Shown: one piece after another, positions 49,369 to 55,273 of the stretch
Numbering within the stretch: position 1 is the stretch's first letter
How the letters are laid out: each line of letters opens with the position of its first letter
DNA from: Psilocybe cubensis
Taxonomy: Eukaryota
Length of the DNA: 64,000 nt
Assembly: GCA_017499595.2 (NCBI GenBank)
Contig: CM039002.1
Coordinates: forward strand, 868,001 to 932,000
Direction: 5' to 3'
The notes under the pieces: model-generated
What the model saw: the letters and a program-made list of their open reading frames with translations, nothing else
Databases searched by the model: none
Told to the model about the DNA's origin: nothing
Made by a program: the position numbers and the translations under genes

Positions 49369-50804
49369 ATGCACATTTCTCTGTGGTCTTCCGGCTTCTT
49401 GCTCCTGGTTCCAGCGGCAACTGCTCAGCTCAACATTTGGGCTCGAGCTTCAGGGAAACTTTACTTCGGATCTGCAACGGACAACTACGAGCTTTCGGAC
49501 AAACCATACAAGGCGCAACTAAGTAATACTCATGATTTCGCTCAAATTACCCCAGTGAGCTTTTTTTGGACCTGGATATGTAATATAAGCTAATTCGAGT
49601 GCAGAGCAACACCATGAAATGGGTAATAATTTGTTCGAAGTCGGTAAAATAAGTGCTGATCACGTTTTAGTTTGCAACGGAACCGACCAGAGGCAAATTC
49701 AATTTCACTGGAGGAGACGAAATTGTCAAGTTCGCCAAAAAGAATCAACAGCTCGTCAGAGGCCATACTTGTGTTTGGCACAGTCAGCTTCCGGATTGGG
49801 TTGAAGCAGGGAATTTTAGCAAGGCAGAGCTTAATTCCATCGTGCACAACCACTGCCACGCCTTGGTTAAACATCATAAGGGTGATATGTGAGTTTCGAC
49901 ACTTTTTCGTGGTTGATGGATCTGACACCTTGTTTTCTAGATGTAAGTTGCTCGAGGTCCTCACCGAATTGAGACAAGATGGACTAATACACTGATAAGA
50001 TGCTTGGGATGTGGTCAACGGTCTGTCGAACTTTTCCGTAGATCATTGCATATATCTAATTATGTTTCAACAGAGCCATTCAACGAAGATGGAACTTTCC
50101 GCGAAACTGTGTTTTACAACACTATAGGTATATCGTATATCAGCACTGCTCTTCGAGCAGCCAGGGCAGCTGATCCTAAGGCAAAACTCTATGTAATCAT
50201 TTGCTTCTTCTGTCCTGAATTTATGCCCTCATCAAGTTATTAACAGATCAACGATTATAATCTTGAGGGATTGAGCCCCAAATCTACAGGAATGGTCAAC
50301 CTTGTCAAGCAACTAAAGAAAGACCGCGTTCCAATTGACGGCATCGGTGTGCAAGGTCATCTCATTGTCGGGAGCTTGCCTACCACAATTCGGGAAAATC
50401 TTCAAGCATTCGCAGATCTAGGGGTTGAAGTCGCGATTACTGAACTAGACATTCGGATGCCAACACCTCCTACTGCTGCGCTTTTGGAACAGCAAAAGAA
50501 GGACTATCAAACTGTGATCGCTGCTTGTAAAGCGGTCAAGAAATGCATTGGTGTCACCATCTGGGACTGGACCGATAAGGCACGTTCATTCAGTCCATGA
50601 CAGTGCAGACTTTTTTTCTGACATTACTTCTTAAGTATTCTTGGGTTCCAGGCGTATTTGAAGGGGAAGGCGCAGCCTTACCTTGGGACGAGGTACGATC
50701 ATATATTTAGTAGCCGAGCTCCATGATCAAACATCTTGCCTTTTTCTCAGAATCTCGTCAAGAAACCCGCCTACTACGGTATAATAGATGGTTGGAGAAA
50801 TTGA
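49369..50804 (+). CDS. GH10 endo-1,4-beta-xylanase, secreted, no CBM, copy 1
   Basis: Signal peptide; [30 protein letters not shown] (acid/base); [24 protein letters not shown] (nucleophile); KKPAY. Confidence 0.95.
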
Positions 50805-51411
50805 TGTAGTCTTTCCCTTTTCTGAAGAATGAAAATCTTGTTTGTCTCAATGTTTATTGTGCCAAAATCTCAGTCCTGAGACGAGAACAGCATCAGCACC
50901 ACTTTTACAAACGTACTGCGGTGTGGGTATATTTCTGGTCTTCACCGTCTTCTTTTTGACTCATCCTTTTTCAGGACATATAGAATATTCTACGCGACCT
51001 CATGACCTCATGACCACAGTAATCGGCAAGAAAACATACGGTTGTTTTCTATCTTCGACAATTCCGGCCCGTGCCACGTCGTTTAAGGTGTCAATTCACT
51101 CTACGGCCACTCAAATGCAATACTCATCACTAAGTCTACGCTGCCACGAAGCGTCTTGCGGAGTCGATACGGCGCGATCACTTTTATGCACCAGCAACGC
51201 CCGCCAAGTATCTCACGATTGTGCGAACCAATGAACAGAAATCGGTATAGTGGGCAAGCATCCCTGGCATTTATTTTCAGACTGCTCGCTGAAATCTTTT
51301 ATTAGTATGCTTCATGTGGGGGTGTAGGCGTTTAGGAGAGTGATATAAGGCGACGTTAGGACCCAGAAAGCCACGCCAGAGAGGATACTGCCATTCTGAA
51401 GCACTTTTTCA

Positions 51412-52915
51412 ATGGCGAAGCTTGCTGTGTTTGTGGGCTCCTTACTCATTTCGATTCCATTCTCTGCTGCCCAATTAGATATCCTCGCCCAACTCGCCGG
51501 GAAAAAATACTTTGGAACTGCTACAGACAACCCAGAACTTACTAATGCCTCTTATGTAGCCCAGCTAGGCAACACATTGGATTTCCATCAACTGACCCCG
51601 GTACGTGATACGTTTTATTTCATTCTTTCATGAAACCTGTCTCATGCGATTCGATAGGCCAATAGTATGAAATGGGTCAGCAATATTTCCTCTCTAAGCC
51701 GGCTTGCTTTGACAATTGTCTGGTAGGATGCTACTGAACCTTCTCGAGGAATATTCACATTTAATGGTGGAGATGCTATTGTCGCCCAAGCAAAATCACG
51801 AGGGCAGCTTATGCGAGGTAAATTCAGTGGAAATTATCGTTCATAAGCTGCGTCTCTGAAATCTCTACAACTCTAGGTCATAATTGCGTTTGGCATAGTC
51901 AGCTTCCTGACTGGGTGACGGCTGGAAATTTCGACAATGCCACCCTATTATCAATCGTAGAGAATCACTGCGGCACGCTAGTTGGACACTACAAAGGCCA
52001 AATGTAGGTTTTTGGTCATTTTCCGTCAAATGATACTAACTATTAATTAATAGATGTATGTTTTTGTTATTCTTCAACATATTTGTCCCATCTTTATTAA
52101 CCAGAAAAAATAGATGGTTGGGATGTCATCAATGGTGAGACATTCAGCCATGTCAAGACTTCTTTTTTATCTCATACATCGATTAAGAGGCGATAAATGA
52201 TGATGGGACTTTCCGACAATCCGTCTTTTTCAACACAACTGGTCTTTCCTACATCAAGGCGGCTTTGAGAACTGCTCGAAAAGCAGACCCCAAAGCAAAG
52301 CTATACGTTCGTTGTTTTTCATCGATCGCACATGACTCTGGTTTTACTGAATTTTCATTCAGATCAATGATTTCAACATCGAAGGCACTGGTGCCAAATC
52401 GACTACAATGATCAACCTTGTCAAGGAGTTGAAGTCTGAGGGTGTTCCGATTGATGGGATCGGTGTCCAATCTCATCTTATCGTTGGCGAAGTTCCTACA
52501 ACTATGCAAGAAAATCTTCAAGCCTTCGCCGACCTCGGTGTAGAGGTTGCTATTACCGAACTTGATATCAGAATGACTCTACCAGAGACCCCTGAACTCC
52601 TTGAACAACAGACGAAGGATTACGAATTTGTGATCTCAGCTTGCAAGGCCGTCAAAGGCTGCGTCGGTGTGACTCTATGGGACTGGACTGACAAGGCATG
52701 TTGATTGCAATTTTTCTCATCGGGAATGTTTCTCTGAAGATCATATTTTTCAGTTTTCATGGGTTCCTGGAGCCTTCGCTGGTCAGGGTGGTGCTTGCCC
52801 ATGGGATGAGGTTAGCATTCGGAAGTCTCCCAAGTTGCAAGTAACTAATAGGCATATTCAGAACTTCAAAAAGAAACCAGCTTACCTGGGTATCGTCAAA
52901 GGATGGCTGTCGTGA
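51412..52915 (+). CDS. GH10 endo-1,4-beta-xylanase, secreted, no CBM, copy 2
   Basis: [57 protein letters not shown]. Confidence 0.95.
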
Positions 52916-53804
52916 AAACAGTTAAAAGGACGAAGTAATATTTATATATGAAACCAGCAGTCTGTTTTAGTCTATGCGAATACACGCCATTCATTGGTCT
53001 ATTCTAGGACCATTACTGAATCAAGTAGCTAAGTTTCTTGAACTGTCAAAATTCTGTTTCTCGGTGGTTTTTTCCAGAATTTCATCGACCATTGGCGTGG
53101 AGATGAGGTCAGGTTGTTGTTATAGGTTGCTGCGGCATTCTCACAGTGATTTTCGCCTAGAAATGTGATTTTCATAATAGTCATATTACTGACAATATGA
53201 CCTATATGTGGAGCCTCACTCTCTTGCGTCACAACGTCTTCCAGTGTACCAAATCAATTTTGGAAGACCACAACATTCTTATAGTCTTTACCAACATAAT
53301 TACCACCACTCTTTATGTCGAGGACCGCATCGCCTTTTTGATCAAACGAACCAAGTAGATGGGTCCTACCAGTGATTTCACCCGTATTCTCTCTGCTCAC
53401 TACACATCTTTTGACGGCAGGAGATTGACATTCGAACCTCATGACTGCTCTTTCTATTTTCTTAAACGATAGCTCCGTTCCGTCTGCAAATTTGGGTTCC
53501 GGGCTCCATGCAAGGACCCATGTATCCGGACTTGGACACCATCTAGAGAAAACGGGATACATTTTGAATGTCATGACCTGTGTTTTGGAGCTCGTCTTCC
53601 ATCGGTACTGGGCCAGGACCATACATTGGACTCGCACGAATGTGCGAATCAGTTGTGAATTTAGTCTCCAATGATCAACTGTTAGAGCACCTGGAGCACC
53701 TCCTGGTACATCCTCATACGACGTGCGGGGGCGGCCCTTTTATCTGTGGAGGGTATATTAACGAGGGGTGAAAATGGCTCAGCAACATAATCCTCCTTTC
53801 GAAT

Positions 53805-55273
53805 ATGACGAGAATTGCGGCGTTGTCGACGATTTTTTTGGCCTACCTTCCCTATTCTCTCGCTCAACTGAATACTTTGGCCCAGAAGGCGGGCAAACTG
53901 TACTTTGGCACAGCGACAGACAATCCAGAGCTATCCAACACAGCATATGTAGCACAACTGGGAAACACGTCCGACTTCCATCAGATTACAGCTGTGCGGT
54001 TGTATCATTTCTGTCTATAATCCATATTTGACATTAGCATTAGGCCAATAGTATGAAATGGGACGCGACTGAGCCATCCAGAGGTACCTTCACATTTAGT
54101 GGTGGCGATGCGATCGTTGCCCAAGCACAGGCACACAAGCAGCTCATCCGTGGTATGTTCCGCCTAGTTGCACTTTTTCTCTTTTGTGTACGATCCAATC
54201 ATCATTATTTTTTAGGACATAATTGCGTCTGGCATAACCAACTCCCTAGCTGGGTGACAGCTGGAAATTTCAATAACGCCACCCTTTTATCTATAGTCCA
54301 GACACATTGCAGTACCCTTGTTGGACATTACAAAGGGCAGATGTAAGTGTCCACATTGCTGTTATTTTCCACATCACTAATTGTTAACCCTTCATAGTTG
54401 TACGTCTCAGAATTATTAACTCACTATCTACCCTCCTAATATAATCCAAACAGTGAGCTGGGATGTCATCAATGGTGTGTTTGTTGTGACAAGTAAATTG
54501 ATGATTCTCATCCAACGTATTGTCATTTACTTCAGAGCCATTCAATGACGATGGAACATTCCGCGACAGTGTTTTCTTTACAACTACAGGCACGGCATAC
54601 ATTAGCACTGCTCTCCGTGCAGCTCGAGCAGCCGACCCCGCCGCGAAGCTTTATGTGAGTCCACCTAACCACATACAGTTAATGCAGCATCCTCTCATAC
54701 ACATATTACCAGATCAACGATTTTAACATTGAAGGCACAGGCGCCAAATCAACTGCAATGGCCAACCTCGTAAAGCAGCTCAAAGCGGAAAATGTTCCCA
54801 TCGATGGAATCGGCGTACAAACACATCTCATCGTCGGACAGGTCCCCTCAACCTTCCAACAGAACCTGCAGAATTTTGCCAACCTAGGTGTCGAGGTCGC
54901 TATCACTGAACTGGACATCCGTATGACGCTGCCAGCGACTACTGCGTTGCTCACGCAGCAGATGAAGGATTATCAGACTGTCATTGCGGCATGCAAAGCC
55001 GTCTCGGGTTGTGTGGGTGTTACGCTGTGGGACTGGACTGACAAGGTGTGTGAGATCCTTCATTGACATTCTGGGTAATCAGTGATAGACGTTGTTCAAA
55101 TTTGTGTCATAGTTTTCCTGGGTACCTGGTACTTTCGCTGGTCAGGGCGCTGCATGTCCATGGGACGAGGTACATTTCATTTTTTCTGATGGTTCACAAA
55201 TTAATGGATGCATGGTGCACAGAACTTTGTCAAGAAACCGGCGTATCAAGGTATCGTCAATGGCTGGAATTAA
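53805..55273 (+). CDS. GH10 endo-1,4-beta-xylanase, secreted, no CBM, copy 3
   Basis: [58 protein letters not shown]. Confidence 0.95.

What the first reader, a model, noticed from the sequence alone, without database searches (positions are those of the whole stretch)
49880..54480. Obligatory 2-nt micro-exon conserved in all three GH10 xylanase paralogs
Seen: just before the catalytic WDVxNE motif, each gene has two consecutive complete introns separated by only two bases: ctag|AT|gtaagt (49941-49942), atag|AT|gtatgt (52054-52055) and atag|TT|gtacgt (54398-54399). Each intron has its own branch-like site and AG. Inclusion gives KGD-I-Y-AWDVVNE, KGQ-I-Y-GWDVINE and KGQ-I-L-SWDVINE; skipping frameshifts before both catalytic Glu residues. 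The intron sequences have diverged while the exon length is fixed, implying selection. Inference: intron-definition or sequential splicing of a near-minimal exon, possibly an on/off switch, and a likely cause of mis-annotation.
Basis: seen in the sequence. Interest (0 to 1): 0.72.

Follow-up and report, generated by a model that had tools for sequence, protein, structure and literature searches.

The report
Two-base exon in mushroom xylanases
Three neighbouring xylanase genes of a mushroom each need an exon only two bases long to build their active site; relatives in other fungi have it too and public gene models often go wrong there, but such tiny exons are already known in mushrooms.

Summary
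Each of three tandem GH10 genes (identical to Psilocybe cubensis database proteins) gives an open 335-336-residue frame with canonical spacing only if a 2-nt exon between two 50-58-nt introns is included; skipping loses both catalytic Glu. The same exon, in the same register, occurs in a fourth paralog and in 19 of 20 informative fungal metagenome loci. The twentieth lacks both introns and encodes the junction contiguously. Its first base behaves as a codon wobble position. All three public gene models are wrong here. No RNA contig spans the exon, so inclusion is inferred; the next two introns of gene 1 are RNA-confirmed. Best reading: an inherited, constitutive exon spliced by intron definition, one intron after the other. 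The on/off switch has no support, and the paralogs share one ancestral exon. The class is known: Coprinopsis cinerea has 57 2-nt exons, Arabidopsis APC11 has a 1-nt exon, and this scan noted a 2-nt exon in a fungal Ras2 gene. One open point: two distant paralogs carry a 2-nt exon shifted by 5 nt. Verdict: new member of a known kind; interest 0.3.

The parts
49369..50804 (+). GH10 xylanase gene 1, 9 exons, 335 aa
   Evidence: open spliced frame; large exon hits PF00331 at E 4.8e-36; two introns supported by RNA contig
49889..49940 (+). gene 1 intron A, 52 nt, phase 2, in the Ile codon
49941..49942 (+). gene 1 2-nt exon (third base of Ile, first base of Tyr)
   Evidence: not spanned by RNA
49943..49999 (+). 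gene 1 intron B, 57 nt, phase 1
50000..50020 (+). gene 1 21-nt exon carrying WDVVN; joined to 50074 in an RNA contig
51412..52915 (+). GH10 xylanase gene 2, 10 exons, 336 aa
52004..52053 (+). gene 2 intron A, 50 nt; another DNA run has an 8-nt insertion and 3 substitutions inside it
52054..52055 (+). gene 2 2-nt exon
52056..52113 (+). gene 2 intron B, 58 nt
52114..52134 (+). gene 2 21-nt exon carrying WDVIN
53805..55273 (+). GH10 xylanase gene 3, 9 exons, 335 aa
54343..54397 (+). gene 3 intron A, 55 nt
54398..54399 (+). gene 3 2-nt exon (third base of Ile, first base of Leu)
54400..54453 (+). gene 3 intron B, 54 nt; a weaker in-frame alternative acceptor lies at 54457
54454..54474 (+). gene 3 21-nt exon carrying WDVIN

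Best explanation
An ancestral GH10 gene of this clade carried two ordinary short introns, 7 and 5 nt upstream of the Trp codon of WDVxNE, and the paralogs inherited them. The two bases between the introns are a constitutive coding exon: the third base of Ile/Met/Leu and the first base of Tyr/Phe/Leu. The spliceosome recognises each 50-60-nt intron across the intron (intron definition), so the exon itself need not be recognised. The two introns are probably removed one after the other, because two spliceosomes cannot sit 2 nt apart. The length is held by the reading frame and by the residue spacing before the acid/base Glu, not by a regulatory role. Shown: anatomy, frame requirement, conservation, clean double loss in one relative, mis-annotation. 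Inferred: inclusion in mRNA, intron definition, sequential order, constitutive use.
For: Canonical open frames only with inclusion. The same -7/-5 register occurs in 4 of 4 same-clade paralogs of this genome. Across the 18 distinct copies the exon reads AT 5, CT 5, TT 4, GT 4, and G occurs only where the residue is Met or Leu: codon behaviour. Flanking intron lengths vary freely (A 47-61, B 51-69, all three remainders mod 3) and match the 19 other introns of the window genes (48-67 nt); a single intron would be 110-111 nt. L020 lacks both introns and encodes KGQIYSWD contiguously. It nests inside a 100/99-supported clade with five exon-bearing copies. Nine of 14 non-genome-annotation protein rows have canonical spacing and none is 2 aa short; so do intronless contigs L012, L027 and L030 and the two best solved-structure alignments. 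Donor A is closer to consensus than the next downstream donor in the same gene (p=0.002, 13 collapsed copies). In fungi skipped exons are 3% of alternative events and intron definition is proposed as prevalent (PMC3925392).
Against: No RNA contig covers the junction; the only informative contig begins at 50000. In-frame single-intron alternatives exist on paper, the best in gene 3, and 18 of 105 database domain rows show the matching 2-aa-short form. One search also returned 6-nt alternatives in 8 rows, with weaker donors and odd residues; its pattern required canonical spacing, so it could not report other spacings among two-intron solutions. Donor B is not significantly stronger than the downstream donor (p=0.16 collapsed), and acceptors are not stronger than those of other introns (p=0.6). 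The order of removal is untested.
Confidence: 0.85

Rival explanations
1. Regulated on/off switch: the exon is skipped under some conditions, giving a frameshifted, degraded mRNA and shutting xylanase off after transcription.
For: Skipping removes both catalytic Glu. A glucose-dependent microexon switch is reported in Trichoderma virens Xlr2 (PMC11121469, passages). In 4 of 18 copies the exon is GT, so the acceptor is followed directly by a possible donor.
Against: No skipped form was seen, but the junction is not covered. Intron interiors show no clear conservation. One relative lost both introns. Skipping is 3% of fungal alternative events (PMC3925392).
Confidence: 0.05
2. One intron of about 110-120 nt with another site restores the frame without the two bases (in gene 3: donor 54343, acceptor 54457), giving a protein 2 aa short.
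For: Possible on paper in gene 3 and in L004, L007 second copy, L022, L023 and L025; 18 of 105 database domain rows show this form.
Against: Not available with the real donor in genes 1 and 2. Needs a GAG acceptor in gene 3. None of the 9 non-genome-annotation rows that cover the motif is short. It does not explain the internal acceptor-NN-donor kept in 18 of 18 copies.
Confidence: 0.04
3. The exon is constitutive, but it is a relic or product of a special route (nested twin-intron or recursive removal) with a fixed order, in which the first splice creates or exposes the second site.
For: A second 2-nt exon in a shifted register occurs in two distant paralogs. Donor A is consistently near consensus.
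Against: In the window genes all four splice sites are intact in the unspliced RNA and none is created by joining, which is not the twin-intron layout as I recall it (PMC9024468 seen only as a listing).
Confidence: 0.06

Closest known systems
Internal exons of 3 nt or less in Coprinopsis cinerea (PMC12230235; main-text passages, supplement 1 part 1 of 3, passages of supplement 5)
   Same: Agaric; 57 exons of 2 nt in 50 genes by long reads; omission often creates a premature stop; breaks gene models.
   Different: GH10 is not named in the enrichment figure or the five searchable supplements. The gene list was not seen and one supplement was too large to read, so a GH10 may be among the 50. The passages read describe no cross-species conservation of one such exon.
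1-nt constitutive exon of Arabidopsis APC11 and 1-nt exon of VPS55 (PMC4674806, PMC8831610; passages)
   Same: Frame-required, conserved, missed by annotation; sequential removal with intron definition proposed; intronless copies in some lineages.
   Different: Plants; shown by cDNA and reporter tests, whereas here inclusion is inferred.
9-nt microexon of plant GH32 invertases (PMC8831610, PMC4674806; passages)
   Same: Conserved microexon in a motif of a glycoside hydrolase; flanking introns reported to be removed in two steps.
   Different: 9 nt and frame-preserving; another enzyme family and kingdom.
Xlr2 microexon switch of Trichoderma virens (PMC11121469; passages)
   Same: Fungal microexon in the xylan-degradation system.
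   Different: Shown to be regulated, in a transcription factor; no sign of regulation here.
Glycoside hydrolase family 10 xylanases (PF00331)
   Same: Pfam match and both conserved Glu motifs.
   Different: Nothing unusual in the protein; activity not tested.

Membership tests
GH10 (PF00331) | Profile match above the curated cut-off | tested here: met
   125 bits against cut-off 22.1 for the large exon of gene 1; the large exons of all three genes exceed the cut-off. The 72-aa piece of exon 3 gave no family but scored 80 bits.
GH10 (PF00331) | Acid/base Glu in WDVxNE and nucleophile Glu in the ITELD motif (roles recalled, not from a call) | tested here: met
   Glu 149/150 and 254/255 in the spliced models
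GH10 (PF00331) | Endo-xylanase activity | not testable with these tools
   no assay
Internal microexon of 3 nt or less | Flanked by two complete canonical introns with donor, branch-like site and acceptor | tested here: met
Internal microexon of 3 nt or less | Included in mature mRNA, shown by reads | tested here: inconclusive
   RNA contig begins at 50000 and does not span it; comparative evidence only
Constitutive microexon | No regulated skipping across conditions | not testable with these tools
   only assembled contigs of two RNA-like runs were available
Regulated microexon switch (Xlr2 type) | Condition-dependent inclusion and skipped isoforms | tested here: inconclusive
   junction not covered
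Spliceosomal twin intron (stwintron) | One intron interrupts a splice site of the other, which forms only after the first splice (definition from the abstract start and recall) | tested here: not met
   all four sites are intact in the unspliced sequence of the three window genes
Recursive splice site | Acceptor followed directly by a donor, no bases retained, typically in very long introns (PMC13149111) | tested here: not met
   two bases separate the sites and the frame needs them; introns are 50-58 nt

The most novel reading that the evidence does not exclude
Six of the seven GH10 genes found in this genome have a 2-nt exon just before WDVxNE, but in two registers. Four related genes have it at -7/-5 with the next intron at +16. 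Two distant genes (34-35% identical in the large exon) have it at -2/0 with the next intron at +14. The boldest reading is that 2-nt-spaced intron pairs are made or moved as a unit: either both introns slid together by 5 nt while the spacing stayed at 2, or a gain mechanism, such as insertion of one intron into the end of another, produced the same layout twice next to the catalytic motif. GH10 would then be a dated natural series for how ultra-short exons arise.
Probability: 0.12. Interest if true: 0.62.

Novelty: new member of a known kind. Interest (0 to 1): 0.3.

Why it matters
Practical: GH10 xylanase models of mushroom-forming fungi are often wrong at the active-site strand. This holds for 3 of 3 models of these genes, and about three quarters of 105 genome-annotated domain rows deviate from canonical spacing (the cause was checked on DNA only for this species). 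That corrupts synthetic-gene cloning, enzyme screens and family trees, and one fixed rule repairs it. Basic: a short, conserved gene with a frame-required 2-nt exon and a natural double-loss relative is a convenient reporter for splicing order under intron definition. It is not surprising to a specialist, since 57 such exons are catalogued in C. cinerea.

Tried and rejected
RNA: no RNA holder was listed. Two same-species RNA-like runs were laid. X5 gave three short contigs on the GH10 genes, none across the 2-nt exon, and X4 gave none; lack of cover is not evidence. The X5 contig starts exactly at 50000, which could mark an assembly fork between spliced and intron-B-retaining molecules. Neither branch was laid and contigs cannot show starts, so I do not count it. 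No same-species pair of genomic and intronless contigs was found: best long matches were 65-75% identical. Allelic differences (36 substitutions in 49300-55300 and 3 indels mapped; 4 rows not shown by the tool) miss the 2-nt exons and their flanking dinucleotides, but they are too few to test selection. The 8-nt insertion in gene 2 intron A fits one intron as well as two. Stronger acceptors were not found. Twin-intron and recursive readings were rejected for the window genes. The invariant second base T was considered as a splicing signal and set aside, since Tyr, Phe and Leu(TTR) explain it by descent. Whole-gene intron maps of L004-L006 were not made, so whether the two GH10 clades share any other intron position is open. 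Literature: searches listed no paper describing a 2-nt exon in GH10 genes. The library lacks most subscription papers, including older xylanase cloning papers that may show this exon. Earlier scan notes: nothing by GH10 words or by sequence.
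Full report
Observation. The three 2-nt stretches lie at 49941-49942, 52054-52055 and 54398-54399, each between an AG acceptor and a GT donor. Whole-gene models give 335, 336 and 335 aa without internal stops. Intron A (52, 50, 55 nt) is phase 2 in the Ile codon and intron B (57, 58, 54 nt) is phase 1 in the next codon. Both have branch-like motifs and fall in the range of the 19 other introns of these genes, 48-67 nt. Skipping yields 180, 148 and 148 aa and loses both Glu (149/150 and 254/255). Retaining intron A or B also truncates. 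In 1000 shuffles per interval the loose layout arose in 2-9% for the three genes, and a stricter pattern, written after seeing the data, in 0-0.2%. The genes share descent, so the figures should not be multiplied as independent events.

Limits of 'obligatory'. Listing all single-intron solutions gave 1, 4 and 3 in-frame alternatives. All but one shorten the protein by 2-11 residues at the strand before the catalytic Glu; the exception, in gene 2, keeps the length through a non-consensus GC donor but rewrites four residues. Only one alternative is plausible by its donor: gene 3, 54343 to 54457, with a GAG acceptor inside the Ser codon, giving a form 2 aa short.

Identity. The large exon matches PF00331. 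The large exons of the three genes are 100% identical to P0009, P0028 and P0038, named Psilocybe cubensis. All 3 of 3 database models are wrong at this junction: one lacks 10 residues including WDVVN, one lacks 50, and one is shortened and partly read in another frame.

RNA. No RNA holder was listed. Of four runs laid, RNA-like run X5 has a 155-nt contig that joins 50020 to 50074 and continues into the exon at 50247. Gene 1 is therefore transcribed and two of its modelled introns are confirmed; the DNA runs do not show these joints. The contig begins at 50000 and does not span the 2-nt exon. Inclusion is thus inferred, not observed.

Comparative test. The metagenome scan returned 78 loci. Of these, 57 are intronless at the junction, mostly high-GC and bacterial-like. 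The other 21 were analysed with a search allowing exons of 1-12 nt and offsets 0-12, but requiring canonical spacing. L018 does not reach the junction. Of the remaining 20, 19 have a 2-nt exon at exactly -7/-5 from the Trp codon. These are 14 distinct copies, about 10 after collapsing near-identical ones; I treated L011 second copy, L026 and L028 as L008 second copy, and dropped two spurious motif hits in L023 and L024. Competing 6-nt solutions appeared in 8 rows, with weaker donors and atypical residues. With the four same-clade paralogs of this genome, the 18 copies read AT 5, CT 5, TT 4 and GT 4. G occurs only where the residue is Met or Leu, and the second base is always T (Tyr, Phe, Leu). 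This is how codon positions behave. Intron lengths vary over all remainders mod 3, and interiors are near-randomised between paralogs (10 of 12 comparisons z<2).

Natural controls. L020 keeps the neighbouring introns but lacks both A and B, and encodes KGQIYSWD contiguously. On a 110-column tree of 52 rows it lies within a 100/99 clade with five exon-bearing copies, sister to C. cinerea P0032 (98/93). The tree is otherwise poorly resolved, but this placement favours a joint secondary loss. A seventh, distant GH10 gene of this genome has no intron at this junction. The split is therefore dispensable for making the enzyme, and the fixed length follows from frame and spacing constraints plus inheritance.

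Annotation damage. Among 105 genome-annotated domain rows, 25 have canonical spacing (27 with two rows my pattern missed), 18 are exactly 2 aa short, 41 have other sequence before the motif and 21 lack it by my pattern (one row is a spurious second anchor; 6 proteins without an anchor and 3 Serendipita rows were set aside). Among 14 rows from non-annotation sources, 9 are canonical, none is 2 aa short, and 5 lack the region. The 2-aa-short form is what a single intron to the AG in the Ser codon would give. I had no DNA for those named species, so the cause is shown only for this one. The two best solved-structure alignments have the canonical spacing.

Mechanism. Most likely each short intron is defined across itself and the two are removed in turn. 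PMC3925392 (passages) reports 61% retention against 3% skipping among fungal alternative events and proposes intron definition. PMC4674806 (passages) argues the same, with successive removal, for a 1-nt exon. Donor A is nearer consensus than the next downstream donor (p=0.002, 13 copies) and donor B is not (p=0.16). In the window genes the A and B donors together score above the other donors (p=0.018, 6 against 19, not independent) and the acceptors do not (p=0.6). The order of removal is unknown. A switch has a fungal precedent (PMC11121469, passages) but no evidence here.

A loose end. The two distant paralogs L005 and L006 also have a 2-nt exon between 53-62-nt introns before WDVxNE. It sits at -2/0, as the last two bases of an Ala codon, with the next intron at +14 instead of +16. 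So 6 of 7 GH10 genes found in the genome have such an exon, in two registers. These two genes look very intron-rich by eye, so coincidence is possible. Whole-gene intron maps were not made, so sliding versus independent gain is open.

Comparison with what is known. C. cinerea long reads show 57 exons of 2 nt in 50 genes and 13 of 1 nt (PMC12230235, passages). GH10 is not named in its enrichment figure or five searchable supplements; one supplement could not be read and the gene list was not seen. Plant 1-nt exons show the same pattern of conservation, mis-annotation and intronless derivatives (PMC8831610, passages). Passages of PMC1184071, PMC7084588, PMC3990503, PMC8476143 and PMC13149111 gave background only; PMC9024468 was seen only as a listing. 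Ten searches listed no description of this GH10 exon, but most subscription papers are outside the library. The scan's own notes include a 2-nt exon in a fungal Ras2 gene (unchecked).

Verdict. The feature is real and well conserved, and it is useful for correcting annotations. It is a new member of a known kind. Interest 0.3.

Noticed in passing
L005 about 1090-1215 and L006 about 1130-1265 (G000:C3): Two distant GH10 paralogs have a 2-nt exon in a register shifted by 5 nt (-2/0), with the next intron at +14; both genes appear to have many other very short exons.
   Followed up: partly
L085 (G000:C11:331600-333900, minus strand): Seventh, divergent GH10 gene with no intron before WDVVNE; by eye it ends in a CBM1-like tail (label recalled, not tested).
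   Followed up: partly
window 50580-50635 and 52696-52753: GC-AG introns at the same position in genes 1 and 2; gene 3 has GT there (55046). P0009 is also wrong at this spot.
   Followed up: partly
window 49605-49622 and 51658-51675: 18-nt exon in genes 1 and 2, missed in P0009. Gene 3 lacks the intron after it, and gene 1 lacks the intron before GHxC, so single-intron losses occurred elsewhere in the cluster.
   Followed up: partly
L007, L008, L011: A gene-1-type GH10 is followed about 2 kb downstream by a second GH10 with the same 2-nt exon, so the tandem layout is shared with other fungi.
   Followed up: partly
L014, L016, L019, L021: The 2-nt exon reads GT, so the acceptor is followed directly by a possible donor, as in a recursive splice site; use of it would equal skipping.
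   Followed up: no
window 52016: DNA run X2 has an 8-nt insertion and three substitutions in gene 2 intron A.
   Followed up: yes
window 55508-57300: The downstream gene is covered in both RNA-like runs, with introns 55844-55916 and 56318-56375 confirmed by joints. By eye it has a SAM-binding-type motif and resembles a HEN1-like methyltransferase (recalled, not tested).
   Followed up: no
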